A stretch of DNA of 64,000 nt from Patescibacteria group bacterium (GCA_041671565.1 JBAZBH010000004.1:9308-73307); one strand, 5' to 3'; numbered from the stretch's first letter, positions 21,886-59,349 are shown. Numbers and translations: made by a program. Notes: generated by a model from the letters alone, not told the origin.

Positions 21886-21896
21886 TCATCAACAAT

Positions 21897-23150: not shown

Positions 23151-23244
23151 ATTTATTCCAGTTTTAGGATGTTTATGATATAATATCGGTAGTTATCTGT
23201 TACTGTTGATAAATTGAGTAAGATTAGTATTCATCATTATTTTT

Positions 23245-31107: not shown

Positions 31108-33792
31108 ATGGGCCAAACTGATGTTTTTAACCAATTTGACCAAACCCAAAAGTTGGGTGATTTCGGTCAGACCGCCGCGGCGGGCGGGCAGTCTTTGTTA
31201 AGCCAGCCAGTGGTGGCCGGGGTTTTGTATTTTATTTTGTTTATCGCGATCGTGGTTGCTGGTTTGGCGCTTTTGCGGTTTTTGTTAATTGCTTTGCGGC
31301 GCCGGTTGGCGACTTTTAACCGGGTGGTGTTGCAAGTTCTCCTGCCCAAAGAGTCGGAGGAACAGGCGGAGAAAGAAGAAGCGATCCAGAAAAAAGACAT
31401 TAAAGAAGTGATCGCCGAGGTAGAGGGGCTCTACGCCGCCTTGATCGGCACGGCGCGGCCGCATAATTGGGGTTATTGGTGGTACGCTTTTCGGCGGTTT
31501 TGGACCGGCCACCACAGCCATTTGTCCTTGGAAATGGTGGCTTGGCAGGATAAAATCAAGTTTTATCTGGTCACGCCGAAGCACTTGGCGGAATATGTGG
31601 AGAAGCAAATTCACGCCGCTTACCCGGACGCCACGGTGGAAAAAACGAGTGACTATAATATCTTTACGCCTCACGGCGCGGTGGCCGGCAGTTACCTTTG
31701 TCCCAGCCGCAGCCAGATTTTGCCGCTCCGGACTTATAAAAAAATGGACTTTGATCCGCTGGAGTCAGTCACCAGCAATCTGTCCAAGTTTGAGGCGGAG
31801 GACGGCGTGGCGATTCAACTTCTGGTCCGGCCCGGCAAAAGCAAATGGCGCAGCCAGGGGATTGGCATTGCCAAAAAAATGCACCAAGGTGAGACGCTGG
31901 AAAACGCCTTGCGGGGACAAAGCGGTTGGTTGAATTTTATCGGTTGGAGTTTTGGCTTACCTTATAAAGGGTTGAAATTTTTGGTGGACAACTTTTTCGT
32001 CACCGCGCCGAAACCGGGCGCGGAAAAGCCGGCCGGGGAAATGAGCGAAGGCGATAAAATGCGCCACGCGCCGGTCCGGATACTGAAACGGGAAGAAGAG
32101 CTGATTCAGGCGCTGGAAGAAAAATACGCCAAACCCTGTTTTGAAGCCAATCTGCGGCTGGTGGTTTCGGCTAAAACCCCGGAACGGACGACAATACTCC
32201 TCCGCAGTGTTATTGGTTCGTTTTCGCAGTTCAGCTCCACTTCCATTAATAATCAGCTCAAAGGGCCGCTCCTTTGGTTCAAGAGCATGTTTATCAATGA
32301 TTTTATCTGCCGCAACTTCCGGGAGTTTAAAAAATTTATCATTTCCAGCGAAGAATTGGTTAGTTTGTATCATTTCCCGCTGTCTTTCAATGAAACGCCA
32401 AATATCGTTTGGCTGCCTTCCCGCCGCGCCGCGCCGCCAGTGGATTTGCCCACCGAAGGCATTATCTTGGGCAAGAGTGTTTATCGCGGGCAAGAGAAAT
32501 TGGTGCGGCTGCAAAAGGACGACCGCCGGCGCCACACTTATATCATCGGTAAATCCGGCACCGGTAAATCGTTTCTCCTCGCCAATATGGCAATCCAGGA
32601 CATCCAGGCCGGCGAGGGTGTTTGTATTATCGATCCGCACGGCGATTTGGTGGACGATGTTTTTGAGCGGGTGCCGAAAGAGCGCGCCGACGATGTGATT
32701 TTATTTGACCCGGCGGACATTGAGCGGCCGATGGGTTTAAACTTATTAGAATACGATCCGCGCTACCCGGAGCAGAAAACTTTTGTGATCAACGAAATGA
32801 TCAAGATTTTTGACAAGCTTTATGACCTTAAACAAACCGGCGGGCCGATGTTTGAGCAATACATGCGGAACGCCATGCTTTTGGTCATGGAAGACCCGGA
32901 GAGCGGTTCCACTCTAATGGAGATTTCCAAGGTTTTGGTTGATCCGGATTACCGCCGTTACAAAATCAGTAAATGCCAGACGCAAGTAGTCAAGGACTTT
33001 TGGGTGAAAGAAGCGGAAAAAGCCGGCGGCGAGGCGGCCCTTGCCAACATGGTGCCTTACATTACTTCCAAATTAACCTCTTTTATTTCCAATGATTTCA
33101 TGCGGCCGATTATCGGCCAACAGCACAGCGCCATCAACTTCCGCGATGCCATGGACAGCGGCAAAATCCTGCTGGTTAAACTGTCTAAAGGGCGCCTGGG
33201 CGACATTAACACCAATTTAGTCGGCATGATGATGGTCGGCAAGATCCTGATGGCCGCCCTTAGCCGGACGGATATGCCGAAAGAAAAGCGCCGAGATTTT
33301 TACCTGTATATCGACGAGTTCCAAAACTTTACGACCGACAGCATTGCGGTGATTTTGTCCGAGGCGCGGAAATACATGCTTAACTTGATTATTGCCCACC
33401 AGTATATTGGCCAATTGGTGAAGCATGACGACACCACCATCAAGGACGCGGTCTTTGGCAATGTCGGCACGATGATTGCTTTCAAAATCGGCGCCGAAGA
33501 CGCCGAGCATATCGCCAAGGAGTTCGCCCCGATTGTTAACCAGTTTGACTTGATCAATGTCGAGCGCTTCAACGCCTACATCAAACTCTTGATCAACAAC
33601 CAAGCCTCGCGGCCGTTTAACCTCCAGACTCTGATTTTGCCGCCGGGCAACCCGGAATTATCCCAAAAAATCAAAGAACTCTCGCGCCTCAAATACGGCC
33701 ACGACCGGGCAAGCGTGGAGCGGGAGATTATTGAACGGAGCCGCTCGGCCGAGTTTTCTTTGGGTAAAGTTGACAAAGAGGCGAAAATCTAG
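31108..33792 (+). CDS. Membrane-anchored FtsK/HerA-superfamily ATPase, VirB4/TraC- or DUF87-like (T4SS-type)
   Basis: N-terminal TM (VVAGVLYFILFIAIVVAGLALL); Walker A IIGKSGTGKS followed by IIDPHGDL; Walker B LYIDEFQNF; about 450 aa N-domain before the P-loop, as in VirB4. Confidence 0.6.
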   Translation: MGQTDVFNQFDQTQKLGDFGQTAAAGGQSLLSQPVVAGVLYFILFIAIVVAGLALLRFLLIALRRRLATFNRVVLQVLLPKESEEQAEKEEAIQKKDIKEVIAEVEGLYAALIGTARPHNWGYWWYAFRRFWTGHHSHLSLEMVAWQDKIKFYLVTPKHLAEYVEKQIHAAYPDATVEKTSDYNIFTPHGAVAGSYLCPSRSQILPLRTYKKMDFDPLESVTSNLSKFEAEDGVAIQLLVRPGKSKWRSQGIGIAKKMHQGETLENALRGQSGWLNFIGWSFGLPYKGLKFLVDNFFVTAPKPGAEKPAGEMSEGDKMRHAPVRILKREEELIQALEEKYAKPCFEANLRLVVSAKTPERTTILLRSVIGSFSQFSSTSINNQLKGPLLWFKSMFINDFICRNFREFKKFIISSEELVSLYHFPLSFNETPNIVWLPSRRAAPPVDLPTEGIILGKSVYRGQEKLVRLQKDDRRRHTYIIGKSGTGKSFLLANMAIQDIQAGEGVCIIDPHGDLVDDVFERVPKERADDVILFDPADIERPMGLNLLEYDPRYPEQKTFVINEMIKIFDKLYDLKQTGGPMFEQYMRNAMLLVMEDPESGSTLMEISKVLVDPDYRRYKISKCQTQVVKDFWVKEAEKAGGEAALANMVPYITSKLTSFISNDFMRPIIGQQHSAINFRDAMDSGKILLVKLSKGRLGDINTNLVGMMMVGKILMAALSRTDMPKEKRRDFYLYIDEFQNFTTDSIAVILSEARKYMLNLIIAHQYIGQLVKHDDTTIKDAVFGNVGTMIAFKIGAEDAEHIAKEFAPIVNQFDLINVERFNAYIKLLINNQASRPFNLQTLILPPGNPELSQKIKELSRLKYGHDRASVEREIIERSRSAEFSLGKVDKEAKI

Positions 33793-36760: not shown

Positions 36761-37486
36761 ATGGAATACTTCACCCAAGCCATTGTCCTCAGTAAAACCG
36801 GCGTTCGGGAATACGACCGCCTTTTTTGTCTTTATACCAAGCATTTGGGTAAAACCACGGTCCTCGCTCGCGGCGCTCGGCGGCCGGGCAGCAAGATGGC
36901 CGGGCACCTAGAACCGTTTGGTTTATTAGCTGTTAAAATCGCCATCGGCCGCGGCCAGCCGCTCCTCGCCAATGTGGAAACCTTAAAGCGCTATCAAAAC
37001 ATTCTTAAAAATCTGGAGCTGATTAAATTGGCGCGCCGTTCAACGGCTTTAGTCGACCGGCTGGTTAAAGAGGGGAGTTGCGATTTGGGGATTTTACAGC
37101 TTCTGAACCAAATTCTGGAGCTTCTAAATTCGCCGGCCGCTAGCCTGCCGACCAAAGTTTTTCTAGTCCAAGTTTTTCAGCTTCAACTTCTAGGCCACCT
37201 CGGTTACCGGCCGGAGCTCGGGCAGTGTTTAGTCTGCCGGCAGAAGCTTCAGCCCGCAGGCAACTTCTTTGATCCGTTAAAAGGCGGCGTTGTCTGCCCG
37301 GCTTGCCAAGCGAAAGTTGTTGATTTACATCAGGCCAGAGTCATTAGCGCGCCGGAAATCAAACTTTTGCGGTTGGCTCTCGGCGAGAAGCTGTCATTTT
37401 TTGCCGGCAAGCGGGTGGCGGCGGAGTTAGCCACCAGTGTTGGCGCGATCATTGATTCTTTTGTCCGAGTGGTGAGTGAGAAGTAA
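36761..37486 (+). CDS. recO: DNA repair protein RecO
   Basis: OB-fold N-terminus (AIVLSKTGVREYDRLFCLYTKHLGK) and CLVC...CPAC zinc motif. Confidence 0.8.
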   Translation: MEYFTQAIVLSKTGVREYDRLFCLYTKHLGKTTVLARGARRPGSKMAGHLEPFGLLAVKIAIGRGQPLLANVETLKRYQNILKNLELIKLARRSTALVDRLVKEGSCDLGILQLLNQILELLNSPAASLPTKVFLVQVFQLQLLGHLGYRPELGQCLVCRQKLQPAGNFFDPLKGGVVCPACQAKVVDLHQARVISAPEIKLLRLALGEKLSFFAGKRVAAELATSVGAIIDSFVRVVSEK

Positions 37487-37522
37487 ACTTGACTTTTTAT
37501 GCCATTATGCTATACTAACATT

Positions 37523-37579
37523 ATGAAAACTTACCAAGCCGTGAATAATAATAACAATAATAACCAGCTACGGGGCTGA
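37523..37579 (+). CDS. Putative 18-codon Asn-rich leader peptide MKTYQAVNNNNNNNQLRG
   Basis: tatact -10 box at 37511-37516. ATG at 37523; 7 of 18 codons are Asn; TGA stop. A terminator/antiterminator follows. Confidence 0.35.
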   Translation: MKTYQAVNNNNNNNQLRG

Positions 37580-37604
37580 GAGGTTTTCTATTAATAAAAA
37601 CCTA

Positions 37605-37637
37605 AGGCCCCGTGAAAGCGGGGCTTCTTTGAATTTT
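37605..37637 (+). terminator. Intrinsic terminator / attenuator hairpin
   Basis: ggccccg-tgaaag-cggggc + ttctttgaatttt. The upstream cggggc (37571-37576, inside the last leader codons) can pair alternatively with gccccg. Confidence 0.5.
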
Positions 37638-37750
37638 ACGGACTTCTCAAGTTCGCCGCAGGCGAACGCCGAGAAGGCCAGAGTAAAATTCATCCGCCGA
37701 ATCCAGCTGCAGAACCCTGCGGCTGGAGAAGGCGGATAGTTGTTTGCTAG

Positions 37751-37806
37751 GCTCTGGGGTAGTTTAATGGTAAAACGCCTGGCTGCCTGCCCGCAATGCT
37801 CTGCGC
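37751..37806 (+). pseudogene. Degenerate 5'-half copy of tRNA-Asn
   Basis: gctctggggtagtttaatggtaaaacgcctggctg closely mirrors the genuine 5' half gctctgggatagttcagtggtagaacgcctggctg. Confidence 0.5.
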
Positions 37807-37878
37807 TCTGGGATAGTTCAGTGGTAGAACGCCTGGCTGTTAACCAGGATGTCGCAGGTTCGAATCCTGCTCCCAGAG
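37807..37878 (+). tRNA. tRNA-Asn (GTT)
   Basis: Cloverleaf: acceptor tctggga/tcccaga (U1-A72 as in E. coli tRNA-Asn); D stem gttc/gaac; anticodon loop ctGTTaa; T arm gcagg-ttcgaat-cctgc; CCA not encoded. Confidence 0.85.
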
Positions 37879-37880
37879 CA

Positions 37881-37920
37881 TAGCGCAGGCAGGCGGGCGT
37901 TCGATTCCTCCCCCCAGAGC
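37881..37920 (+). pseudogene. Degenerate 3'-half copy of tRNA-Asn
   Basis: gcgggcgttcgattcctccccccagagc mirrors the genuine gcaggttcgaatcctgctcccagagc; acceptor complementarity to the upstream 5' pseudo-half (gctctgggg/ccccagagc). Confidence 0.5.
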
Positions 37921-37967
37921 TTAATAGATAATACTTGGCCGCTTAATCTTTACTCTAAATTAAGATA

Positions 37968-40184
37968 ATGGTAATATATAGGTATATGCCATGGAAACTT
38001 CCGATCCCATCAAAAATAAAAAGGATTGAGACAAAGGATAAAAAAGAAGCGGCTAGTTTTAAAAAAGCCGGTTTTTCTCAAAAAAGAATGAAAAGCGGCA
38101 AGTTTGTTTTAGAAAGAAAACTCCCAAAATGGGAATACTTTCAAGAAAAAGTTCGTGTATTTTTAGATGTTCTTGGATTTCAGGATATTGAATGTGGACA
38201 ATCGGCTCGATTGGGGAGATATCAGATTGATGTTTTTGGTGGGTACGAAGGGACCTTTTTGGTTTTTGAATGCAAAAGTGTTAACGAACCAAAGCGAAAA
38301 ACGATTAGACAGATTATAAATGATTTTGCCGGAAAAAAAGCAGAAATAGAGCAAGCAATAAGAGAAAGATTTGGTTCTAAATACAATGAAGTTAAATTTA
38401 TTTTAGCTCTCGAAGAAATAGACATTTTAGAAGAAGATGAAAAAACTGCTCGTGAAAATGATATTTATATATGGGGTAGTAGTTATTTAAAAACTGGTGA
38501 AGATCTCTTTTCACTTATTGGTCCGTTGGCTTTACATTATGTTTTAAAAGAATTAGGTGTTAGTTCAAAACCCATTAAAGATGAGGAAGGAGGGGCTGAT
38601 TATAAAGTTCCAAGTTTTCGTATAACGGTGGGAGATCAACAATTATATAGTTTTTTTCTTCCTGCCGAAAAATTGTTAAATTTAGTGTATGTTTTTCGTC
38701 TTCAGCCGGGGAATGAAGATGCCTATCAAAGATTTATTTCAAAAAAACGTATTCTCGGAACAAAAGATGAAATTGGTATAACTGATTTTATAAACAACGG
38801 CGGATTTTTTAAAAACACCGTTGTTTGTAGTTTTGAAAGGCAAGTCCATTTTGAGGCAAAACCAACTGGTCTTTTATTGCAATCAACAAATATAGAATTT
38901 GGTATTTTGAGCATTCCAAAATTATATGGAACAGTTTGGGTTATTGATGGACAACATAGAATCTATGGTTATGCCGGTGCAAATCCTGAAACTAAAAAAT
39001 CACATATTGGGATAATGGCTTATCAAGATATTGAAAAAAAACGTCAAGCAAAAGATTTTATTGATATTAATCAAAAACAAAAATCAGTAGATCCTAATAC
39101 TCTTTGGGATTTACTTTCCCAAACAGATCCATATTCAATGCAGGGTGCGATAACAAAAATTGCTCGCGGATTGAATAAAAATGGAATTTTTAAAAATAAA
39201 ATTTTAATTCCAGGGAAAATGTTTCATGGTAAAAAATCATTATATCCATTAAAAATAGCCAATATTTGTAATAGTTTGTATGATCGCAGATTACTTGACT
39301 ATAAAGGCCGCGACAATTTATATAAAAGAACTTCAGATGTAGCGGATAGTAATTATTACCCGGATAGTGTTATAAACTACCCAGTAGATGTCCTTAATCA
39401 GTATTTTTCTTTACTTTGGGATATTGCAGACAAAACTCCAGAATGGAGAAAGGGGTTTATCATTCAAAATAATGGATTTAATATTTTTTTGCGCGTTCTC
39501 GCAGAAGTTTTGAAATTTCAAAAAGGCAATTGGGATAAACAGGTAGCAAAAGAATTAATGGATGAACCATTGAAATTATATTTTGAAGAGCAGTTTGAAA
39601 AAATAAAAGATATAAGGATCTCAACAAGTAATGAGGCGGGTAGAGCAAAGGTTGCTTTAGAAATTATAAAGCATATTAACCAGAAACAAGAGTCTTTTGC
39701 CCGTGAATTTATTGCGGAAACAGAAAAAAGAGAACGGTCGGCTTTTGAAAAATTAGAGCCTTATCAAACATTAAAAGAATTAGAAACAAGTTTAAGGGTT
39801 TTTATTGAGGAAAAATTAAAGCAATTAACACCAAATTGGTGGAAACAAAGAATCCCATCGGATGTTCAGGAAAAAGCTGAAGAAAACATGGCTAAAAACG
39901 AAAGTCCTTGGCCATGGGTACCAATAGAGGAAAAATCGCCGATCTTTTATATTAATTTTCCTGATTATGGGAAAATAATTCAAAGAAAAGATAACTGGAA
40001 TGATATTTTTTCAAAAATATTTAAAGATTCTAATATAATCTTTTCTTGGTTGAGGGAGTTGGAGGATATCCGCAATAAAATTGCCCATTTTCGTCCTATT
40101 TCCGTTGAAGAGTCTACCACCCTTAGACTTAATACAAGTAAAATTATAAAAACTATCAAACCAACAGAAGAGAAAGAGGAGTAG
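37968..40184 (+). CDS. Three-domain fusion: PD-(D/E)xK (Mrr_cat-like) nuclease + DGQHR (DndB-like ParB-fold) domain + C-terminal HEPN (Rx4H). Candidate defense protein on an AT-rich islet.
   Basis: N-term FLDVLGFQDIECGQSARLGRYQIDVFGGYEGTFLVFECKS (D..ExK); middle GTVWVIDGQHRIYGY; C-term WLRELEDIRNKIAHFRP (R-N-K-I-A-H). About 36% GC versus about 50% flanking. An alternative start at 37986 is possible. Confidence 0.75.
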   Translation: MVIYRYMPWKLPIPSKIKRIETKDKKEAASFKKAGFSQKRMKSGKFVLERKLPKWEYFQEKVRVFLDVLGFQDIECGQSARLGRYQIDVFGGYEGTFLVFECKSVNEPKRKTIRQIINDFAGKKAEIEQAIRERFGSKYNEVKFILALEEIDILEEDEKTARENDIYIWGSSYLKTGEDLFSLIGPLALHYVLKELGVSSKPIKDEEGGADYKVPSFRITVGDQQLYSFFLPAEKLLNLVYVFRLQPGNEDAYQRFISKKRILGTKDEIGITDFINNGGFFKNTVVCSFERQVHFEAKPTGLLLQSTNIEFGILSIPKLYGTVWVIDGQHRIYGYAGANPETKKSHIGIMAYQDIEKKRQAKDFIDINQKQKSVDPNTLWDLLSQTDPYSMQGAITKIARGLNKNGIFKNKILIPGKMFHGKKSLYPLKIANICNSLYDRRLLDYKGRDNLYKRTSDVADSNYYPDSVINYPVDVLNQYFSLLWDIADKTPEWRKGFIIQNNGFNIFLRVLAEVLKFQKGNWDKQVAKELMDEPLKLYFEEQFEKIKDIRISTSNEAGRAKVALEIIKHINQKQESFAREFIAETEKRERSAFEKLEPYQTLKELETSLRVFIEEKLKQLTPNWWKQRIPSDVQEKAEENMAKNESPWPWVPIEEKSPIFYINFPDYGKIIQRKDNWNDIFSKIFKDSNIIFSWLRELEDIRNKIAHFRPISVEESTTLRLNTSKIIKTIKPTEEKEE

Positions 40185-40305
40185 GGGAGTTTTGTGGATG
40201 AATATCTATAAGTTGATATTCTCTGGGCGAGTATTGTCCCGAGAATTTTTTGTTTATCCTTTACCCCACCCTTGGGGATAACTGGCTATTTACCCCTTAA
40301 CGGCG

Positions 40306-40334
40306 TTGACTTTTGGCTAGCCGGGCTCTATAAT
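40306..40334 (+). promoter_or_regulatory. Near-consensus sigma70 promoter (TTGACT-17-TATAAT)
   Basis: ttgact tttggctagccgggctc tataat. Confidence 0.6.
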
Positions 40335-40380
40335 TTTGCTAGTGTTAAAGCATAATCCTTTGGAGGGCGAGATAAATAAT

Positions 40381-40497
40381 ATGGTCCTAGACCAAGTGGC
40401 GATAGGTGAGAGTGAGCCGCCTAGCGGTTGTCGGTTTTTAAGCAAGTTAAATTTACAAAATAATTTATCGCTTGGTTTGATTATTCAGTCGTTTTAA
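40381..40497 (+). CDS. Possible 38 aa leader micro-ORF (MVLDQVAIGESEPPSGCRFLSKLNLQNNLSLGLIIQSF)
   Basis: ggaggg SD 14 nt upstream; spans a ccgcctagcgg hairpin + T-run; lies in the ~190 nt leader of the ATP-grasp/KamA cluster. Confidence 0.25.
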   Translation: MVLDQVAIGESEPPSGCRFLSKLNLQNNLSLGLIIQSF

Positions 40498-40525
40498 AAC
40501 CGGCTGTTTTTTAATTAACTAATTT

Positions 40526-41641
40526 ATGACCGAAGGCAACGGGACAAACGGGCAAAACAACAATGGCGTTGGCGCGGCGGCGGATAAAAGGGCCGCGGCT
40601 TTGGTTTTGCCGCAAAAAGTGGCGATCATTTACAGCGAGGTCAAGCGGGAGTATTTTCCTACAGAAACCCAGTATTTGACCGAGAAAGACGCGCTTCGCG
40701 ACGCCCAGGCGGTGGCCGGCTATTTGGAAAAACTGGGCGTGACGCCAATGCTTTATCCCGGCGACGCTGACTTGGCGGAGAAAATCCGTCACGACCGGCC
40801 GGAAATGCTGATCAATATGGTCGGTTCGGTCAAAGGCAATGAGTATCTGGCTTCCGCCATTCCGGCGCTCGCCGAGCTCCTAGACATTCCTTATACTGGC
40901 GCCGGCATTTTGGGCGAGTCGCTCGCTTACAATAAATTTCTGGTTAAAAAACTTTTACAGCAAAACGGCGTGCCGGTACCCAACTACCAGCTGTTTAGTG
41001 ACCAAAATGATTTTCTCGACCCGACACTGCGGTTTCCGGTCATTTCCAAACTCAATGAAATTCATGGCGCCGTGGAAATTACCAAAGACGCCGTGTCCGA
41101 GAACGAAAAGCATTTGCGGGCGCGGCTCAGTTTCCTGATCAAAACCTACGAACAGCCGGTTTTGGTGGAGGAGTTTATCGCCGGCCGGGAAATTTCCGCC
41201 ATGCTTTTGGAAGGTTTGAACAAAAAGGTTTATCTTGCCGAAAAGGTTTTTAACAAGCCGGATGAAAAATACGCCTTTGCCACTTTTGAAGACCAGTGGT
41301 TGGAAGAGGCCTCAGGCAAAGCGCCATTCACTTACCAAAAGTTTCAGGACAATATTCTCAAAGAATATGTGAAAAAAGCCTTTGAAATCACCAAAATGGC
41401 TGACTATGGCAAGTTTGATGTCCGGCTGGATAACTCCGGCCGCTACTACTTTGTGGACTGCAACAGCAACCCGGCGTTTGGCCCGAAAGAAGTGGACTGC
41501 GCCATTGCCAATATCCTTGATCTTTACGGTGTCTCTTTTTTAGAAATTTTGCGGCGGCTCCTCCTTAACACCGCCCGCGACGCCAAGTCCAAGATTTCGC
41601 CCAGCCCGGATTCTGGCGATGACAGCAATAATGAAAAGTAA
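40526..41641 (+). CDS. ATP-grasp ligase, D-alanine--D-alanine ligase family (paralog 1)
   Basis: Ddl-like N-domain (KVAIIYSEV...LGVTPMLYP), central LAELLDIPYTGAG, ATP-grasp core KLLQQNGVPVP...PVISKLNEIHGA...VLVEEFIAGREIS, C-terminal VDCNSNPAFG. Confidence 0.7.
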   Translation: MTEGNGTNGQNNNGVGAAADKRAAALVLPQKVAIIYSEVKREYFPTETQYLTEKDALRDAQAVAGYLEKLGVTPMLYPGDADLAEKIRHDRPEMLINMVGSVKGNEYLASAIPALAELLDIPYTGAGILGESLAYNKFLVKKLLQQNGVPVPNYQLFSDQNDFLDPTLRFPVISKLNEIHGAVEITKDAVSENEKHLRARLSFLIKTYEQPVLVEEFIAGREISAMLLEGLNKKVYLAEKVFNKPDEKYAFATFEDQWLEEASGKAPFTYQKFQDNILKEYVKKAFEITKMADYGKFDVRLDNSGRYYFVDCNSNPAFGPKEVDCAIANILDLYGVSFLEILRRLLLNTARDAKSKISPSPDSGDDSNNEK

Positions 41642-41644
41642 TTT

Positions 41645-42676
41645 ATGAAGAAGCTTAACCTAGGCTTCATCTATAATGTCCGCCACACGGCGCCGGATTT
41701 AAACAATCCGCAGTATTTGCTGGAAGCGGAATTTGACACGCCGGAGACGATTGCCGGCATCACCGGGGCGTTGGAAAGTTTGGGCCACACGGTTTATCCG
41801 GTGGAGGCGGACGAAGACGCTTACCCTAAACTCAAAGAATTAAAAGGCAAAGTTGATTTGGTTTTTAATGTTGCTGAAGGCATTCGCGGCGCCGACCGTG
41901 AAGCGCAGTTGCCGGCGATGATGGAAATGCTCGGCTTGCCTTACACTGGGCCGCCGCCGATCGGCTACGCTTTAGGTTTAAACAAAGCCGTGGCCAAAGA
42001 AATCCTGGCTTATTACCACATTTTAACCCCGCGCTGGCGGACAGTTTCGCGTTTAGAAGAATTGGAACAAAAGCAGTTTGATTTTATGCCGGTGATTGCG
42101 AAGCCGCTGTCCGAAGGCTCGAGCAAGGGGATACAAGCTAAGAATTTAGTTCATAATTTAGCCGACTTAAAAACCATCACGGCGGAACTTTTGGCGGCCT
42201 ATCATCAGCCGGTGCTTTTGGAGGAATATCTGCCGGGCCGCGAGTTTACCGTTGGCGTGATTGGCACGCCACCAGAGGTCCTGCCGATCATCGAGGTGTC
42301 GTTTGACGCTTTACCCCCGGAGATGCCCAAATTTGACCATTTTGAGGCTAAATGGGTATATGACAATCCGGCCACGGAGGCTGATCCGCTGGTTTGCCCG
42401 GCCGTTCTTTCGCCGGAGCTGGAAGGGCAGATCAAGAACCTTTGCCTGCAGGCGTTTGATGTCCTGGAAATGGCGGACTGGGCGCGGTTTGATGTGCGGC
42501 TCGACAAGAATAATTTACCCCACATCTTGGAAGTTAACTGCCCGCCGGGGATTATCCCGGACCCGAAAGAAAATTCCCGCTTTCCGCGGGCGGCGCGGAC
42601 CGCTGGTTACAGTTTCCCGCAAATGTTAGAAAAAATATTGCTGTCGGCTTGCCACAAAACTCTCGCCCCACCTTAG
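41645..42676 (+). CDS. ATP-grasp ligase, D-alanine--D-alanine ligase family (paralog 2)
   Basis: FNVAEGIRGADREAQLPAMMEMLGLPYTGP (Ddl N-domain), PVIAKPLSEGSSKGI, VLLEEYLPGREFTVGVIG, LEVNCPPGI. Confidence 0.7.
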   Translation: MKKLNLGFIYNVRHTAPDLNNPQYLLEAEFDTPETIAGITGALESLGHTVYPVEADEDAYPKLKELKGKVDLVFNVAEGIRGADREAQLPAMMEMLGLPYTGPPPIGYALGLNKAVAKEILAYYHILTPRWRTVSRLEELEQKQFDFMPVIAKPLSEGSSKGIQAKNLVHNLADLKTITAELLAAYHQPVLLEEYLPGREFTVGVIGTPPEVLPIIEVSFDALPPEMPKFDHFEAKWVYDNPATEADPLVCPAVLSPELEGQIKNLCLQAFDVLEMADWARFDVRLDKNNLPHILEVNCPPGIIPDPKENSRFPRAARTAGYSFPQMLEKILLSACHKTLAPP

Positions 42677-42716
42677 AAAACTGGTTAAAACCTGCCCGGC
42701 CATCCGCCGGCAGTTT

Positions 42717-43574
42717 GTGCCGAGCGCGAAGGAGGGGAAAGACGAAGTCCTGACTTCGACTGACCCGCTGATGGAAGAGCACTTTACCGTCACCCGCGGC
42801 CTGGTCCACAAATATGGCAATCGCGCTTTGGTTCTTCTGACTATGAATTGCGCCGCTTACTGCCGGTTTTGCACGCGCCGCCGGTCAGTGTCGGATATTC
42901 AAAAGGGGATGATTACGCCCGCCGACATCAAGAAAATGGTTAGTTATGTCAGAAAGCACCGGGAAATCACCGAGCTGATTTTTTCCGGCGGTGATCCGCT
43001 GACCGTGCCGGCGATTTTAAAAATGGCTTTACGGCAGTTTGCTAGTTTGCCGCAGATTAAAGTCATCCGGGTGGGTTCGCGCCTGCCGGTGTCGAACCCC
43101 GCGGCCGTTAATCGCCAAGTGATTTCGGCGCTTCAGGAAGTTAAAAAGCAACCATTATATCTCATGCTCCACTTTGAACATCCGGCGGAAATCACGCCGG
43201 CAACGGTTGCGGCGGTTAAACGGCTGCAGTCAGTTGCCACCATGACGCTGTCGCAGTCGGTTTCGCTGAAAGGTGTTAATGACTCAGTTAAAACGCTTTA
43301 CGAGCTTTTCAGCCGGCTGGTGGAAATCGGGGTCAAGCCTTATTACCTTTACCGTTGTGACCCAGTCAAAGGAGCCGAGCATTTTATTGTGGATTTTAAA
43401 AAAGAAGTCCGAATTTTTACCGAACTTCGTAAACGCCTCAGCGGTCTCGCCACGCCCCTGTATGTCATTGACGCGCCCGACGGCGCCGGCAAAATTCCCG
43501 TGCCGCTCGATTTCTGGCAGTTTGACGCTACTGGTTACCGAGATTTCCGGGGGAAGAAGTTGAAAGTGATTTAG
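42717..43574 (+). CDS. KamA-family radical SAM protein (lysine 2,3-aminomutase / EpmB-like), short form
   Basis: CAAYCRFCTRRR (Cx3Cx2C cluster in the KamA-specific CRxCxRR context); SGGDPL; only 285 aa. Confidence 0.7.
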   Translation: MPSAKEGKDEVLTSTDPLMEEHFTVTRGLVHKYGNRALVLLTMNCAAYCRFCTRRRSVSDIQKGMITPADIKKMVSYVRKHREITELIFSGGDPLTVPAILKMALRQFASLPQIKVIRVGSRLPVSNPAAVNRQVISALQEVKKQPLYLMLHFEHPAEITPATVAAVKRLQSVATMTLSQSVSLKGVNDSVKTLYELFSRLVEIGVKPYYLYRCDPVKGAEHFIVDFKKEVRIFTELRKRLSGLATPLYVIDAPDGAGKIPVPLDFWQFDATGYRDFRGKKLKVI

Positions 43575-43612
43575 ATAGCCGATAGCACATAGCTCATAGC
43601 CGATAGTTGGAC
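43575..43612. repeat. GATAGCCGATAGC-word repeat
   Basis: gatagccgatagcacatagctcatagccgatag. Confidence 0.45.
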
Positions 43613-43643
43613 GAGTTGTAAGTTCTTCTTTTTATAATAAAAT

Positions 43644-44984
43644 ATGGAAGGGATACTCGTTATAATAGGGATAGCTATAATTTGGGGAATAATTTCTTGG
43701 TTTATTGAAATTTTTTCTAATTCAAAAAGATACTTAGAATTAAAGCCAAAACTAGATAATTTAGAAAAAGCAACGAAGGAGCAAGAATTAAAAATTTTAA
43801 ACAATGCGGCAAAATTAGAGGCAGAGTCACAGAAAAGATTAGATGAATTTTCGCAAAAAGTTAAGAAAACAAGCGACGAATTTGAGCTAAAAGAAAAATT
43901 ATGGAATGAACAGATGCAGAGGGAGATAGGTGAAATTCAAAAAATAGCTAAACAAAAATCAATGGGATTTCCTTGGTTAGCCGAAGCATATGCAGATTAT
44001 TTCACATTAGAAGATTATAAATTAGAAAAATATCTAAAAGATAAAAAACATCCAGCATATACTGCCGCAGAAAATGTAAGGATTATTAAAAATGAAAAGA
44101 GGGAATTATTGAAGGAAAATAAAATAGTCAGATATAAAATTAATTATTTTGAAAAATTATTTCCATGGCTCTCCGAATTAATTGCTGAAGACGAAGACGA
44201 ATATATTCCAGTTAGAATTGATAATATAGATGATGACAATAATGAAGATAGGGTTAAAGATTTTCTTACACCAGAAGAATACAAAAATCTTCCCTCTGTC
44301 GAAAGAAATCAAATAGCCCTAGATAGATATTTGAAAAATAGAAATAAGTCAAAATGGGCGATTGGCAGAGATTATGAAATGTATGTTGGGTATTTATATG
44401 AACAAGCCGGGTATTCTATCGAATACAAAGGAATTCTCGATGGTTTTGAAGATCTGGGTAGAGATATTATTGCTAAAAAGGGTGGTGAAGTTTGTATTAT
44501 CCAATGTAAACACTGGGCACAATATAAGGAGATACATGAAAAACATATTTTTCAACTCTTTGGAACAACGATGGAATATTGGATAAATAATTATCAAGCT
44601 GTGAGGAGCCAATTAAATTTATTCTCTCAAAATTTGAATAGTAATAATGCACCTAAAAGTTTTGAAGAATTTGCAAAATTTTTAAATGAAAATAAACTTC
44701 GGCCAATATTTTTTACATCAACAAAACTATCTAATAAAGCCAAGGAAATGGCAAATGCCTTGAGCGTTGAAATTAGAGAAAACGAATCACCTGGCGAATT
44801 TCCAAGAATCAAATGTAATATAAATAGCGACGAGTTTAGTTATCCAACAAAAATTTATCACCTGCCAATGGATCAGCAATATGATCGGACTATAATAGGT
44901 AATCGTTCAGGAGAGTTTTATGCTTTTACGGTTAAACAGGCAGAAGATGCTGGATTTAGGCGAGCTTTTAAGCACAGATTTTAG
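43644..44984 (+). CDS. Membrane-anchored coiled-coil protein with Mrr_cat-like (PD-(D/E)xK) restriction-endonuclease domain; AT-rich islet
   Basis: N-terminal TM; about 120 aa K/E-rich coiled coil; GRDYEMYVGYLYEQAGYSIEYKGILDGFEDLGRDIIAKKGGEVCIIQCKHW (Mrr_cat pattern). About 31% GC. Confidence 0.6.
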   Translation: MEGILVIIGIAIIWGIISWFIEIFSNSKRYLELKPKLDNLEKATKEQELKILNNAAKLEAESQKRLDEFSQKVKKTSDEFELKEKLWNEQMQREIGEIQKIAKQKSMGFPWLAEAYADYFTLEDYKLEKYLKDKKHPAYTAAENVRIIKNEKRELLKENKIVRYKINYFEKLFPWLSELIAEDEDEYIPVRIDNIDDDNNEDRVKDFLTPEEYKNLPSVERNQIALDRYLKNRNKSKWAIGRDYEMYVGYLYEQAGYSIEYKGILDGFEDLGRDIIAKKGGEVCIIQCKHWAQYKEIHEKHIFQLFGTTMEYWINNYQAVRSQLNLFSQNLNSNNAPKSFEEFAKFLNENKLRPIFFTSTKLSNKAKEMANALSVEIRENESPGEFPRIKCNINSDEFSYPTKIYHLPMDQQYDRTIIGNRSGEFYAFTVKQAEDAGFRRAFKHRF

Positions 44985-45061
44985 GTGATTCTTACTGCTC
45001 GTCATTCAAAAAATAAAATTAATATTATATATAAAAAAACACTTACCTTAGTTTTTTATAA

Positions 45062-45093
45062 AAAGGCTAAAGCCCGCGAAATGATTCGCGGGC
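45062..45093. terminator. Bidirectional intrinsic terminator
   Basis: aaaaaggctaaagcccgcgaaatgattcgcgggcttttt. Confidence 0.6.
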
Positions 45094-45108
45094 TTTTTGT
45101 GACGGTTG

Positions 45109-45312
45109 TCAGGAGGGCAGGCCGATATTGCCGGACAGCGCTTGGGCGATGATGCCCAGCAGTTTGACCAGCACTTCTTCCAGGCCGACGAAAATGCTCG
45201 GCAGGAAGAGTTTGATCACGACGATGGCCAGGGCCAGCGACAGCGCGCTTCTCATAGATTTTAGTCTATGAATTAGTCCAGCGAGGTTGAACCATTCAGC
45301 CGGGCTGACCAC
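45109..45312 (-). CDS. Possible small membrane protein (67 aa)
   Basis: Hydrophobic ORF on the opposite strand immediately after the bidirectional terminator; no family signal. Confidence 0.25.
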   Translation of the reverse strand: MVSPAEWFNLAGLIHRLKSMRSALSLALAIVVIKLFLPSIFVGLEEVLVKLLGIIAQALSGNIGLPS

Positions 45313-45434
45313 GCCCGCTGTTAGGCTGGCCTTTGGTTTCCCTCCTGGCGCAGTGCTCCTGCGTCAAGAGGGAAAATTGGCAATGTTCAGGGGGTAATAC
45401 CTTTTTAACTTATTTAATCAATCCTGCCAATGAT

Positions 45435-45463
45435 TTTGCTTTTTTGTCAACAGAGGTGTATAC
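45435..45463 (+). promoter_or_regulatory. Putative sigma70 promoter (TTGCTT-17-TATACT)
   Basis: ttgctt ttttgtcaacagaggtg tatact, about 60 nt upstream of the CYTH gene. Confidence 0.4.
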
Positions 45464-45522
45464 TGGAAGCAATTTTGAAAATTAGTAACATTATTTTTTT
45501 GCCGCCGTCTAAATAAGCGTTT

Positions 45523-46101
45523 ATGGCGATTGAATACGAGGCAACATTTTGGCCAGTTGATAAGGATGAAGTCAGAGACAGATTGAAACAAGCCGGCGCA
45601 AAACTTTTGCGGCCGGAATTTTTGCAACGGCGGTATAATTTTGCTTTGCCGGGCGTCGGTAAGGTGACGGACACTTGGCTCCGGGTGCGCGACGAGGGGG
45701 ATCAGATTACGATGAGCCTGAAAGGCGTTTACGGCGAGCGGATTGAAGACCAAAAAGAGATTTGCCTGAAAGTTGATAATTTTGAAGAAGCGAAAAATTT
45801 TCTGGAAGGCTTAAACTGCCAGATTAAATCTTACCAAGAGACCAAAAGAGAAATTTGGCAGCTTGACGGCGTCGAGATTGTGATTGACGAGTGGCCTTTT
45901 CTGGAGCCGCTGGTTGAAATCGAAGGCCCGGGTGAGGCGGCGGTCAAAGCCGCAGCCGTTAAGGCCGGGTTTGATTACACCACGGCGCAGTTTTGTTCCG
46001 TTGCCAAACTCTATAAAGACAAATATAACTTAGAATGGGACCAAATCAGCAACCAGACGCCGAAAATTGTTTTTGAAATGGCTAATCCGTTCGTTAAGTA
46101 G
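45523..46101 (+). CDS. CYTH-domain protein (class IV adenylyl cyclase / triphosphatase fold)
   Basis: IEYEATFWP (ExExK-type start), TWLRVRDEG, ...EPLVEIEG acidic tunnel motifs. Confidence 0.65.
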   Translation: MAIEYEATFWPVDKDEVRDRLKQAGAKLLRPEFLQRRYNFALPGVGKVTDTWLRVRDEGDQITMSLKGVYGERIEDQKEICLKVDNFEEAKNFLEGLNCQIKSYQETKREIWQLDGVEIVIDEWPFLEPLVEIEGPGEAAVKAAAVKAGFDYTTAQFCSVAKLYKDKYNLEWDQISNQTPKIVFEMANPFVK

Positions 46102-58386: not shown

Positions 58387-59349
58387 ATGTTCTCGGTTTT
58401 ATTAAATTTAATTTTTTCCGTTATTTTAACTAAGGCTGATTGGCCGCAAGTTGAACGAGAGTATTTTATTGCGCCAATTGCTGAAACAGTTGAGATTATT
58501 CCGCAAAGCGGGGGAGACCAAGTTTATGCCGGTCGGCTCAAGTCCGCAGCGGATAAGCCGGTAGCGCCGAAGAAAATTAACCAAAACAGTTTAGGTGTGG
58601 AAGTGACGGCGCTTAGCGGATTAGCGGTTGATTGGGACAGCGGTAAGGTTTTGTGGGAGAAAAACTCCGGTGAGAAAAGGTCTTTGGCGAGCCTGACTAA
58701 ATTGATGACCGCCTTGGTTTTTCTGGAACATAATCCAGGCTGGGATAAAGAGGTGGAAATCACCGCCGAAGACCAGCGGGAAGGTGGCGCTAATTTTTTC
58801 TTGGTCGGTGAGACTACAACAGTTCGTGATTTATTTTATTCTACTTTAATTGGCTCGATCAATTGTTCGGCGGTGGCTTTAGCCCGTTCCACCGGTTTGA
58901 GCGAAGCTGACTTTGCCCGAGCGATGCAACAAAAAGCTAAAGCGTTGGACTTGGTATCGGCGATTTTTGTTGAACCGACCGGCCTGCTTGACGGCAATCA
59001 AGCCACAGCCGAGGACACGATAAAGCTTTTGCGGGCGGCGCTCGGCAATACGGCGATTGGCAATGCCACTACGCTGGGCAGTTATGAAGTTAATATTTTG
59101 AATAAAAATAGTAAACGGACGGTAAGTAATACTGATTGGCTTCTGGGCGGCTTTCTCAATCAATCACCTTATAGCATATTAGGCGGCAAGACCGGCTACA
59201 TTGATAACGCCGGCTATTGTTTGGGGCTTGGCGTGGAGCGCGGCGGCCGGCGAGTGCTTTCGGTGATGCTCGGCAGTAATAGCTTAGAAAACCGCTTTCA
59301 GGACACTAAGGCCGTGGTGGATTGGATTTTCCGTAATTATCAGTGGTAG
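58387..59349 (+). CDS. D-alanyl-D-alanine carboxypeptidase (peptidase S11, PBP5/6-like)
   Basis: SLASLTKLMT (SxxK), SINC (SxN), KTGY (KTG) motifs. Confidence 0.8.
   Translation: MFSVLLNLIFSVILTKADWPQVEREYFIAPIAETVEIIPQSGGDQVYAGRLKSAADKPVAPKKINQNSLGVEVTALSGLAVDWDSGKVLWEKNSGEKRSLASLTKLMTALVFLEHNPGWDKEVEITAEDQREGGANFFLVGETTTVRDLFYSTLIGSINCSAVALARSTGLSEADFARAMQQKAKALDLVSAIFVEPTGLLDGNQATAEDTIKLLRAALGNTAIGNATTLGSYEVNILNKNSKRTVSNTDWLLGGFLNQSPYSILGGKTGYIDNAGYCLGLGVERGGRRVLSVMLGSNSLENRFQDTKAVVDWIFRNYQW

What the first reader, a model, noticed from the sequence alone, without database searches (positions are those of the whole stretch)
40526..43574. Operon of two tandem D-Ala-D-Ala-ligase-like ATP-grasp enzymes plus a short KamA-type radical SAM aminomutase
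Two paralogous Ddl-family ATP-grasp genes (371 and 343 aa) are followed by a 285 aa protein. That protein carries the lysine-2,3-aminomutase-type cluster CAAYCRFCTRRR. KamA/EpmB enzymes make beta-lysine. ATP-grasp ligases of the Ddl family condense amino acids, or an amino acid onto an amine. Together they suggest synthesis of a beta-amino-acid-containing dipeptide or oligopeptide. Candidate products include a compatible solute, a cell-wall building block or a small secondary metabolite, rather than D-Ala-D-Ala itself. The window shows no mur genes adjacent, and two Ddl paralogs in tandem is atypical. The cluster sits between the two foreign nuclease islets, behind a consensus promoter and a long leader.
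Basis: inference. Interest (0 to 1): 0.65.

Follow-up and report, generated by a model that had tools for sequence, protein, structure and literature searches.

The report
Beta-lysine enzyme with paired ATP-grasp ligases
An uncultured Patescibacteria (CPR) bacterium has a three-gene operon that joins a probable beta-lysine-making radical SAM aminomutase to two divergent D-Ala-D-Ala-ligase-like enzymes; the pairing recurs across the phylum with no described function, and in this strain a 37-bp deletion has removed the aminomutase's start codon.

Summary
The three ORFs are real and at the stated coordinates. Both ATP-grasp proteins belong to the Ddl superfamily but fail every curated Ddl cutoff and differ at substrate or catalytic positions. 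The third protein is a KamA-family radical SAM enzyme. It keeps the Fe-S cysteines, the PLP lysine and both lysine-binding aspartates of Clostridium lysine 2,3-aminomutase. Its 285-aa length comes from a lesion: a near-identical contig shows that the window lacks 37 bp, which removes gene 2's stop and the KamA ATG. The family is normally about 309 aa. Across 167 related loci, KamA-type genes sit in tight same-strand runs with Ddl-like ATP-grasp genes in about 40 loci and more than 10 architectures. These involve two different KamA subfamilies, and often a MurL-like adenylating enzyme or a GNAT. That supports functional coupling: beta-lysine formation followed by ATP-grasp ligation. The link is not obligate, since ag1 usually occurs without KamA. 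In two lineages KamA orthologues cluster with EpmA or EF-P, so an EpmB-like role in EF-P beta-lysylation is a serious rival. The acceptor of the ligation is unresolved. No publication describes this combination. I rate it a new variant of a known kind, of moderate interest.

The parts
40306..40334 (+). Sigma-70-like promoter candidate (TTGACT-17-TATAAT)
   Evidence: It matches 11 of 12 consensus positions and is the best site in 37400-45600. This is a consensus match only. It lies just downstream of the low-GC islet.
40335..40525 (+). Leader of about 190 nt, specific to this window, with a weak terminator-like hairpin at 40415-40439
   Evidence: No Rfam match (best E 1.2). Folding z-score is -0.01. 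No nucleotide conservation upstream of ag1 in any of the 168 related loci held at that point. Only TTG-start mini-ORFs are present.
40526..41641 (+). ag1: divergent Ddl-superfamily ATP-grasp protein (371 aa) from a very slowly evolving CPR family
   Evidence: Pfam Dala_Dala_lig_C 53.6 bits. Ddl models give 89.5 bits against a 243 cutoff. It is 25% identical to DdlB. The ATP/Mg site is kept, but K215Q, R255K, S150G, E270D, S281E and Y216W are invariant across the family. Homologues are 66-75% identical across CPR classes. Median identity is 69%, against 42% for ag2 in the same loci.
41645..42676 (+). ag2: Ddl-like ATP-grasp ligase (343 aa); its last ~7 codons and its stop are altered by the deletion
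   Evidence: Pfam 99.7 bits. Ddl models give 165 bits against 243. It is 33% identical to DdlB. The AF2 model has pLDDT 93 and all top PDB matches are Ddl or VanA-type ligases. S150, K215, R255, G276 and S281 are kept; H63E, Y216W and L282Y/R are family-wide. The native C-terminus is ...SACQRYSLPLK in L001.
42647..42654 (+). Junction of a 37-bp deletion, within the octamer GCTTGCCA (imperfect repeat GCTTGCCA / GCTCGCCA in L001)
   Evidence: L001 positions 1-1865 equal window 40790-42654 at 100% identity. L001 1895-3543 equal window 42647-44295 with one mismatch. The offsets differ by 37 nt.
42648..43574 (+). KamA-family radical SAM/PLP aminomutase coding region without its ATG (first listed start is GTG 42717; 285 aa against about 309 aa in the family)
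   Evidence: TIGR00238 scores 207.5 against 199.2 for the window ORF and 215.5 for the intact form P0003. Aligned to LAM 2A5H at E 4e-55, the CxxxCxxC motif, R134, D293, D330 and K337 equivalents are conserved. Motif coordinates are CAAYCRFCTRRR 42849-42884, YRCD 43350-43361 and IDAPDGAGK 43467-43493. The frame is open from 42648, with CGG where the family has its start codon.
37968..40184 (+). Upstream low-GC islet: DGQHR (DndB/DpdB-like) + Swt1-type HEPN protein (context, not part of the operon)
   Evidence: GC is 31-33%. Hits are TIGR03187 DGQHR at 96.9 bits, Pfam HEPN_Swt1 and DndB, and PADLOC PDC-M34B at 3e-16.
43644..44984 (+). Downstream low-GC islet: Mrr-type restriction endonuclease-like protein (context)
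   Evidence: GC is 31%. Pfam Mrr_cat scores 33 bits. In relatives this position holds a NIF3-like gene followed by RuvA.

Best explanation
The three genes form a conserved Patescibacteria operon. The KamA-family enzyme converts L-lysine to beta-lysine by radical SAM/PLP 2,3-aminomutase chemistry. The two co-translated Ddl-superfamily ATP-grasp ligases use ATP to form acyl-phosphate intermediates and join that beta-lysine by amide bonds to an amino-acid or peptide partner. The product is a beta-lysine-containing peptide that is not D-Ala-D-Ala. I consider a cell-envelope (peptidoglycan-precursor-type) peptide the most likely product class. ag2 is the catalytically canonical ligase. ag1 is a slowly evolving paralogue with altered catalytic positions, and may be a specialised ligase or a partner subunit. 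In this strain a 37-bp deletion removed the KamA start codon, so the beta-lysine branch is probably weakly expressed or inactive. What is shown: gene identities, active-site conservation, the deletion, and the recurrent linkage. What is inferred: beta-lysine as the shared metabolite, the ligation step, and the acceptor.
For: KamA chemistry: the family cutoff is met, and the Fe-S cysteines, R134, D293, D330 and PLP-K337 equivalents of LAM are conserved. In glutamate 2,3-aminomutase the two aspartates are replaced (my own knowledge, Ruzicka and Frey), so their retention points to a basic substrate. Coupling within the operon: the ag1-ag2 gap is 3 nt, and the native ag2-KamA gap is 2 nt. Coupling across genomes: at least one Ddl-like gene lies within 6 genes of KamA in 33 of 83 KamA-anchored loci. 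About 40 loci place KamA in a tight same-strand run with ATP-grasp genes, in more than 10 architectures that include fused double ATP-grasps. A second KamA subfamily, about 40% identical and with the same active-site residues, occupies the same position next to ag1/ag2 in other lineages. Not Ddl: all Ddl cutoffs are failed, and no mur genes appear in any locus. ag2 has invariant acidic replacements in the first-substrate site (H63E, plus D/E at the S19 column) together with Y216W and L282Y/R, which fits a cationic, larger substrate. Cell-envelope lean: a distant MurL-like family (8 of 9 members match, best E 4e-11) lies directly beside ag1 or ag2, and sometimes KamA, in at least 15 loci. MurL is an ATP-dependent epimerase of the terminal residue of a peptidoglycan precursor peptide (PMC5808125). 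FemAB, DegT and DUF218 neighbours also occur. GNATs recur between ag1 and ag2.
Against: The linkage is facultative. In ag1-anchored loci only 7 of 80 have a KamA gene in the DNA fetched, 32 loci show ag1 alone in its run, and 50 of 83 KamA loci lack an adjacent ATP-grasp. KamA orthologues sit with a protein that passes the EpmA equivalog cutoffs (L016, L019) and with EpmA plus EF-P (L083), which already supplies a known consumer of beta-lysine. ag2 is 33% identical to E. coli DdlB, and the window encodes an S11 D-Ala-D-Ala carboxypeptidase, so a Ddl is needed somewhere in this genome. The MurL similarity is remote and far below its cutoff of 700. ag1 has non-canonical residues at K215, R255 and S150 and may not be a ligase. 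There is no biochemical evidence and no literature. In this window the KamA gene lacks its start codon.
Confidence: 0.4

Rival explanations
1. Two unrelated housekeeping functions are kept adjacent only by synteny. The KamA protein is the CPR version of EpmB and supplies (R)-beta-lysine to EpmA for EF-P Lys modification. ag2 is the organism's divergent D-Ala-D-Ala ligase for peptidoglycan, and ag1 is a paralogue linked to the cell wall.
For: A protein that passes the EpmA equivalog cutoffs (300.8 against 286.9; 274.5 against 264) lies in the same cluster as a 68-70% identical KamA orthologue in L016 and L019. L083 reads KamA-EpmA-EF-P, and EF-P lies 5 kb upstream in L170. The best-scoring KamA models include EpmB and AblA_like_2. 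ag2 is 33% identical to DdlB, keeps K215, R255, S150 and S281, has a Ddl fold, and is named Ddl by NCBI. The window has an S11 D-Ala-D-Ala carboxypeptidase but no other ddl. KamA often stands alone in variable contexts.
Against: True EpmA is adjacent in only 3 of 83 loci, and none is in the 64-kb window. The KamA clade fails the EpmB cutoff (217 against 369). Synteny alone does not readily explain more than 10 different ATP-grasp/KamA architectures, or a second KamA subfamily in the same slot. ag2 and eight of its paralogues fail the Ddl cutoffs and never match the Ddl N-terminal substrate motif region. H63, Y216 and L282 are replaced family-wide.
Confidence: 0.27
2. The ATP-grasp enzymes modify a protein. 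They attach beta-lysine to EF-P Lys or to another translation-related target, or extend it there. This would be an acyl-phosphate route analogous to, or downstream of, the adenylate-using ligase EpmA.
For: In every lineage the KamA gene is paired with some ATP-dependent carboxylate-amine ligase: EpmA (L083), Ddl-like ATP-grasps (about 40 loci), or a weakly GSP-synthase-like 475-aa protein in Armatimonadota. In L016 and L019 ag1 and ag2 sit between EpmA and KamA. ag1's unusually slow evolution (69% against 42% for ag2) fits a conserved macromolecular partner. SET and CxxCxxCC (FliB-type) genes occur in some clusters.
Against: No Ddl-type ATP-grasp is known to act on proteins (my own knowledge; RimK and LysX belong to other branches). 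EpmA and the ATP-grasps coexist in L016, so simple replacement is unlikely. ag1 occurs mostly without KamA. There is no EF-P gene in the window. The GSP-synthase similarity is marginal (E 0.02-0.05) and has no PDB support.
Confidence: 0.13
3. The operon makes a free small molecule, either an N-acylated or peptide-linked beta-lysine compatible solute or a secondary metabolite, in the manner of AblA/AblB or the L-amino-acid ligase pathways.
For: KamA plus GNAT pairing has precedent (AblA/AblB; my own knowledge), and GNATs recur in these clusters. Arrays of one to four ATP-grasp domains with GNAT, SET and CxxCxxCC genes resemble small biosynthetic clusters.
Against: The genes are widespread, chromosomal and (for ag1) extremely conserved in genome-reduced CPR bacteria, which is unlike accessory secondary metabolism. 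No transporter or regulator is consistently linked. The window's own cluster has no GNAT.
Confidence: 0.12

Closest known systems
EpmB (YjeK) / EpmA (PoxA, GenX) EF-P beta-lysylation system
   Same: A KamA-family aminomutase of EpmB-like size, without the C-terminal domain of LAM, is genetically paired with an ATP-dependent carboxylate-amine ligase. Orthologues of this KamA lie next to EpmA and EF-P in L016, L019 and L083.
   Different: The clade fails the EpmB equivalog cutoff (217 against 369). Here the partners are Ddl-type ATP-grasp enzymes (acyl-phosphate chemistry), not a class II aaRS paralogue (acyl-adenylate chemistry). There is no epmA or efp in the window.
Lysine 2,3-aminomutase KamA/AblA (Clostridium subterminale LAM, PDB 2A5H; methanogen AblA/AblB)
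   Same: The CxxxCxxC motif, R134, D293, D330 and the PLP-binding K337 equivalents are conserved, with E 4e-55 to 2A5H. GNAT genes accompany some related clusters, as AblB accompanies AblA.
   Different: The protein is about 309 aa against 416 aa. The alignment ends at LAM residue 344, so the C-terminal domain is absent. The AblA cutoff is failed (230 against 525). The window copy additionally lacks its first 24 codons.
D-alanine--D-alanine ligase (DdlB) and VanA-type ligases
   Same: The fold is the same (ag2 TM 0.7-0.8 to Ddl structures), as is the ATP/Mg site. ag2 keeps S150, K215, R255, G276 and S281.
   Different: Scores are below all curated Ddl, Van and D-Ala-D-Ser cutoffs. H63E, Y216W and L282Y/R apply to ag2, and K215Q, R255K, S150G and S281E to ag1. 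The N-terminal GGxSxE region is not matched. There is no mur/dcw context, and the genes occur as tandem arrays of one to four paralogues.
Enterococcus faecium Aslfm/Racfm (ATP-grasp D-aspartate ligase with its racemase, building the peptidoglycan side chain) - recalled from memory, not tested here
   Same: The logic is the same: an enzyme that makes an unusual amino acid is encoded next to an ATP-grasp ligase that would attach it to a precursor peptide.
   Different: The amino-acid-forming enzyme is different (radical SAM aminomutase against racemase). No sequence comparison was made. Beta-lysine is not a known peptidoglycan constituent.
MurD2/MurL alternative peptidoglycan pathway (Xanthomonas)
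   Same: In related CPR loci a distant MurL homologue (U457 family) lies directly beside ag1 or ag2, and sometimes KamA. The logic of ligase plus ATP-dependent epimerase of the peptide's terminal residue is the same (PMC5808125).
   Different: No U457 gene is in this window. The similarity is remote (best E 4e-11, cutoff 700 bits). The partner ligases are ATP-grasp enzymes, not Mur ligases.

Membership tests
KamA family radical SAM proteins (TIGR00238) | Score at or above the curated subfamily cutoff (199.2 bits) | tested here: met
   207.5 bits for the window ORF and 215.5 bits for the intact form P0003.
KamA family radical SAM proteins (TIGR00238) | CxxxCxxC [4Fe-4S]/SAM motif and a PLP-binding lysine in the GGGK-type motif | tested here: met
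   CAAYCRFC at 42849-42872 and IDAPDGAGK at 43467-43493 align with C125/C129/C132 and K337 of 2A5H.
Lysine 2,3-aminomutase (AblA/KamA equivalog TIGR03820) | Equivalog score cutoff (525.4 bits) | tested here: not met
   223.5 bits (window ORF) and 230.1 bits (P0003).
Lysine 2,3-aminomutase (AblA/KamA equivalog TIGR03820) | Lysine-binding residues Arg134, Asp293 and Asp330 | tested here: met
   CTRRR, YRCD and IDAP align with these residues of 2A5H. They are invariant in the family alignment A1.
Lysine 2,3-aminomutase (AblA/KamA equivalog TIGR03820) | C-terminal domain beyond about residue 345 of the 416-aa enzyme | tested here: not met
   The alignment to 2A5H ends at residue 344, and the protein ends about 19 residues later.
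EpmB, EF-P beta-lysylation protein (TIGR03821) | Equivalog score cutoff (369.3 bits) | tested here: not met
   203-217 bits for the window ORF and for four relatives, including the EpmA-linked copies.
EpmB, EF-P beta-lysylation protein (TIGR03821) | Co-occurrence with EpmA and a Lys-type EF-P | tested here: inconclusive
   EpmA is in the cluster in L016 and L019, and EpmA plus EF-P in L083. Neither is in the 64-kb window. The rest of the genome was not available.
D-alanine--D-alanine ligase (NF002378 / TIGR01205) | Curated score cutoffs (243 and 245.65 bits) | tested here: not met
   ag1 scores 89.5 and 83.4; ag2 scores 165 and 139.5. Eight ag2-type paralogues score 151-191.
D-alanine--D-alanine ligase (NF002378 / TIGR01205) | Substrate and catalytic residues of DdlB (E15, H63, S150, K215, Y216, R255, S281, L282) | tested here: not met
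   ag2 has H63E, Y216W and L282Y/R. ag1 has K215Q, R255K, S150G, S281E and Y216W, across 50-60 family members.
D-alanine--D-alanine ligase (NF002378 / TIGR01205) | Genomic association with mur/dcw genes | tested here: not met
   None is present in the window or in the loci inspected. FtsA-FtsZ at 21897-24405 is preceded by YbeY, not ddl.
ATP-grasp superfamily, Ddl-like branch (Pfam PF07478) | Gathering score, Ddl-like fold, and ATP/Mg ligands (K97, K144, E180, E187, D257, E/D270, N272) | tested here: met
   53.6 and 99.7 bits against 24. The ligands are invariant in both families. The ag2 model has pLDDT 93 and all its top PDB hits are Ddl. The ag1 model was too poor to use (pLDDT 51).

The most novel reading that the evidence does not exclude
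CPR bacteria have an undescribed beta-lysine ligation chemistry. In it, Ddl-type ATP-grasp enzymes, often together with a MurL-like adenylating enzyme, install or extend beta-lysine on a core cellular acceptor. The acceptor would be either the peptidoglycan precursor peptide (a beta-lysine-containing cell wall) or EF-P (an ATP-grasp alternative or extension to EpmA). The near-invariant ag1 would be a phylum-wide core component.
Probability: 0.3. Interest if true: 0.75.

Novelty: new variant of a known kind. Interest (0 to 1): 0.55.

Why it matters
Beta-lysine currently has few known fates in bacteria: EF-P modification, lysine fermentation, N-acetyl-beta-lysine solutes and some antibiotics. 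A recurrent pairing of KamA enzymes with Ddl-type ATP-grasp ligases in genome-reduced Patescibacteria would add a new fate. It could bear on cell-wall composition or on translation-factor modification in a phylum whose biochemistry is almost entirely inferred. It also matters for annotation, because ag2-type proteins are deposited as 'D-alanine--D-alanine ligase' although they fail every curated Ddl test. The ag1 family (about 70% identity across CPR classes, annotated as hypothetical) is a tractable target for finding a core CPR function.

Tried and rejected
1. Riboswitch or attenuator in the long leader: no Rfam hit, folding z = -0.01, no conservation in 168 loci, and no convincing leader peptide. 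Rejected.
2. A naturally short KamA: rejected in favour of a 37-bp deletion.
3. A single '450-500 aa partner family' upstream of ag1 or KamA: hhalign shows at least five unrelated groups. One is MurL-like, one is a further ATP-grasp, one (Armatimonadota) is only marginally GSP-synthase-like with no PDB hit, and the others are a histidine kinase and a solute-binding protein.
4. EpmA hits in L075, L084 and the window: these are ordinary AspRS/AsnRS-type class II synthetases.
5. AF2 model of ag1: mean pLDDT 51, so it was not used for fold search.
6. AFDB fold search: the library was unavailable.
7. Names for distant ag1 relatives: none were informative.
8. Literature searches for aminomutase + ATP-grasp, EpmA/EpmB + ATP-grasp, and CPR + Ddl found nothing relevant.
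9. Search for a canonical Ddl in about 2 Mb of fetched CPR loci: none found, but this is uninformative because the loci were chosen around the anchor genes.
10. att-type direct repeats bounding the islets: none convincing.


Full report
OBSERVATION. The window encodes three co-directional ORFs at 40526-41641 (371 aa, called ag1 here), 41645-42676 (343 aa, ag2) and 42717-43574 (285 aa, GTG start). ag1 and ag2 both match Pfam Dala_Dala_lig_C above its gathering score (53.6 and 99.7 bits) and are 27% identical to each other. The third ORF carries CAAYCRFCTRRR (42849-42884) and passes the KamA subfamily model TIGR00238 (207.5 against 199.2 bits). Homologues with E-values of 1e-185 and lower place the contig in an uncultured Patescibacteria (CPR) bacterium close to Magasanikbacteria. 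The cluster has background GC (49-53%). It lies between two segments of 31-33% GC. One encodes a DGQHR+HEPN protein and the other an Mrr-like nuclease. The best promoter-like site of the region (TTGACT-17-TATAAT, 40306-40334) lies about 190 nt upstream of ag1.

THE 'SHORT' KamA IS A LESION. Family members are 308-313 aa and begin MLATRLSPYL.... In the window the same frame is open from 42648 but reads CGG where the start codon should be. A Logan contig (L001) is 100% identical to window 40790-42654, and identical apart from one mismatch to 42647-44295, but carries 37 extra bases between them. Those bases hold the native end of ag2 (...SACQRYSLPLK, stop) and the KamA ATG 2 nt later. The junction falls within an imperfect octamer repeat (GCTTGCCA / GCTCGCCA). 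That fits either slippage or an assembly collapse. Of 78 family ORFs in related loci, 76 extend at least 23 residues further upstream. No Shine-Dalgarno sequence precedes GTG 42717. NCBI had to call an ATC start for this contig (P0002). In this strain the aminomutase is therefore truncated by 24 conserved residues, and is probably poorly translated.

WHAT THE PROTEINS ARE. The intact KamA form aligns to Clostridium lysine 2,3-aminomutase (2A5H) at E 4e-55. The three cluster cysteines are conserved, as are Arg134 (alpha-carboxylate), Asp293 and Asp330 (epsilon-ammonium) and the PLP lysine K337. The alignment stops at residue 344 of 416, so the C-terminal domain is missing, as it is in EpmB-sized enzymes. 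The clade is roughly equidistant (about 200-255 bits) from the AblA, AblA_like_2, EpmB, Glu- and Arg-2,3-aminomutase models and reaches none of their cutoffs. It is a distinct KamA clade whose active site predicts a lysine-type substrate.

ag2 has a confident AF2 model (pLDDT 93), and all its best PDB matches are Ddl or VanA-type ligases. It is 33% identical to E. coli DdlB. Even so, ag1, ag2 and eight further ag2-type paralogues all fail the curated Ddl cutoffs (89-191 against 243 bits), and the matches start only at profile position 22-32.

Both families keep the ATP/Mg ligands. ag2 keeps S150, K215, R255, G276 and S281, but has H63E, Y216W, L282Y/R and an extra invariant acid in the first-substrate site. 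ag1 has K215Q, R255K, S150G, E270D, S281E and Y216W. ag2 therefore looks like an active ligase with a changed first-substrate pocket that may bind a cation. ag1 is non-canonical.

COMPARATIVE GENOMICS. A scan of species-representative genomes with a KamA family alignment found 349 relatives, in many Patescibacteria classes and in Armatimonadota. In the 83 loci analysed, 33 have at least one Ddl-like gene within six genes of KamA. The typical order in the closest clade is IleRS-ag1-ag2-KamA-NIF3-like-RuvA.

The reciprocal scan, anchored on ag1 in metagenomes, gave 80 loci. An ag2-type gene follows ag1 in about 30 of them, and a KamA gene is present in only 7. Four of those seven carry a different KamA subfamily (348-365 aa, about 40% identical) that keeps the same active-site residues.

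Counting only tight same-strand runs, KamA or KamA2 is joined to ATP-grasp genes in about 40 loci with more than ten architectures. These include AG1-AG2-KAM, AG2-KAM, U457-AG2-KAM, AG1-KAM2-AGC, KAM-AG2-AG2 and fused double ATP-grasps flanking KamA. This diversity argues for functional coupling and not just inherited gene order. However, the coupling is facultative: 32 runs contain ag1 alone and 13 contain KamA alone.

ag1 is remarkably conserved. It is 66-75% identical across Roizman-, Woese- and Chisholmbacteria. Its median identity is 69%, against 42% for ag2 in the same 32 loci. The family is small, with 76 representative clusters at E<=1e-30.

TWO CONTEXT CLUES POINT IN DIFFERENT DIRECTIONS. 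(i) EF-P. In L016 and L019 the cluster reads IleRS-EpmA-DUF218-CxxCxxCC-ag1b-ag2-KamA, and the EpmA passes both NCBIfam equivalog cutoffs. L083 reads KamA-EpmA-EF-P. In L170 an EF-P gene lies 5 kb upstream of U457-ag2-KamA. EpmA needs beta-lysine, so at least these KamA orthologues very probably act as EpmB.

(ii) Cell envelope. A 450-505-aa family (U457) with a PP-loop-like SFGKDS motif lies directly beside ag1 or ag2 in at least 15 loci, and beside KamA in L004/L030, L023, L170 and L162. Eight of its nine sampled members match NCBIfam MurL, with best E 4e-11. [quoted passage not shown] FemAB, DegT and DUF218 neighbours also occur, and GNATs recur between ag1 and ag2. None of these accessory genes is in the window.

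MECHANISM. My best reading (confidence about 0.4) is as follows. KamA makes beta-lysine. The two translationally coupled ATP-grasp ligases join it, through acyl-phosphate intermediates, to an amino-acid or peptide partner. The product is a beta-lysine-containing peptide, most likely related to the cell envelope. In this strain the beta-lysine branch is crippled by the deletion.

The main rival (about 0.27) is that KamA is simply the CPR EpmB, and that ag2 and ag1 are divergent housekeeping cell-wall ligases kept adjacent by synteny. The window does encode an S11 D-Ala-D-Ala carboxypeptidase (58387-59349), and no ddl accompanies FtsA-FtsZ. A Ddl activity must therefore exist somewhere in this genome.

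Two further rivals remain. One is ATP-grasp-mediated protein (EF-P) modification (about 0.13). The other is a free solute or metabolite (about 0.12). In every lineage KamA is paired with some ATP-dependent carboxylate-amine ligase: EpmA, Ddl-like ATP-grasps, or in Armatimonadota a marginally GSP-synthase-like protein. This is the common thread behind all the beta-lysine-ligation readings.

WHAT IS NOT THERE. The long leader has no Rfam match, no excess folding energy, no conservation and no credible peptide ORF. It is best explained as sequence left between the inserted islet and ag1.

NOVELTY. No paper in the searchable library links KamA or EpmB enzymes with ATP-grasp ligases, or discusses these CPR Ddl-like families. 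Public annotation calls ag2 'D-alanine--D-alanine ligase' and ag1 'hypothetical protein'. The logic (an enzyme that forms an unusual amino acid, next to an ATP-dependent ligase) is known from EpmB/EpmA, AblA/AblB and, from memory, Aslfm/Racfm. The enzyme combination and its distribution are new. I classify it as a new variant of a known kind, with interest 0.55.

Noticed in passing
window 37751-37920: The intact tRNA-Asn(GTT) at 37807-37879 is flanked by what look like the two halves of a second tRNA-like sequence. The 5' part (37751-37785) is 89% identical to the tRNA-Asn 5' half. The 3' part (about 37896-37920...TTCGATTCCTCCCCCCAGAGC) is complementary to its acceptor 5' strand. This could be an integration scar beside the low-GC islet, or a nested or disrupted tRNA gene.
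   Followed up: partly
window 37968-40184: A low-GC (31-33%) single-gene islet encodes a 738-aa fusion of a DGQHR (DndB/DpdB-like) domain with a Swt1-type HEPN domain. The HEPN part matches the PADLOC candidate defence family PDC-M34B at 3e-16.
   Followed up: partly
window 43644-44984: A low-GC (31%) islet encodes a 446-aa protein with an Mrr-type nuclease core and a weak C-terminal 'sunset' domain match. It has no PADLOC hit. It occupies the position where relatives have a NIF3-like gene.
   Followed up: partly
L095, L099, L101, L102, L136, L093, L123, L162, L170, L023, L004/L030 (for example L170:7434-8951): A 450-505-aa CPR protein family (U457) with an SFGKDS PP-loop-like motif and a conserved C...WC..C..C cluster lies beside the Ddl-like ATP-grasp genes. 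It is a distant relative of MurL, the ATP-dependent peptidoglycan-precursor epimerase (8 of 9 members match, best E 4e-11). This could mean CPR bacteria make D-residues at the peptide level.
   Followed up: partly
L091:11062-12159, L115:12075-13121, L137:10974-12059, L162:2928-4019: A second KamA subfamily (348-365 aa, about 40% identical to the window's, below the TIGR00238 cutoff at 153.6 bits) lies directly after ag1 or ag2 in Microgenomates-type contexts. It keeps the Fe-S cysteines and the R134, D293, D330 and K337 equivalents.
   Followed up: partly
L057-L082 (Armatimonadota; for example L059:8584-10011 and the two following genes): In Armatimonadota the short KamA gene is preceded by a conserved 475-aa protein with no Pfam family. 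That protein has marginal GSP-synthase pre-ATP-grasp hits (E 0.02-0.05) and no PDB hit. KamA is followed by a CPYC glutaredoxin-like protein of about 80 aa. This is a different, also undescribed, KamA partnership.
   Followed up: partly
window 40526-41641 and ag1 homologues (P0121-P0240): ag1 is 66-75% identical across distant CPR classes, while its operon partner ag2 is about 42% identical in the same loci. That is unusually strong constraint for a protein annotated as hypothetical. It also has non-canonical residues at the Ddl catalytic positions K215, R255 and S150.
   Followed up: partly
window 4197-19082 and 31108-33792: A 779-aa protein with a T4SS-pilin-like domain plus a Big_5 domain is followed by a 4177-aa giant protein with TIG, Big_5 and EPTP-like repeats. 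A VirD4/TrwB-like coupling-protein homologue (894 aa) lies further on. These are typical CPR surface and type-IV-related genes.
   Followed up: no
window 21406-24405 and 58387-59349: FtsA-FtsZ is preceded by YbeY and TSP3-repeat proteins, not by murC/ddl/ftsQ. An S11 D-Ala-D-Ala carboxypeptidase is encoded 15 kb downstream of the operon, so the organism presumably makes D-Ala-D-Ala-terminated stem peptides.
   Followed up: no
L002/L012 and L004/L030: Magasanikbacteria relatives expand the cluster. One form is three ATP-grasps + GNAT + CxxCxxCC (FliB/YkgJ-type) + KamA. Another is two fused double ATP-grasps (about 795 aa) + U457 + KamA + a SET-domain protein. In both cases an M17 aminopeptidase and a U32 peptidase follow.
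   Followed up: partly
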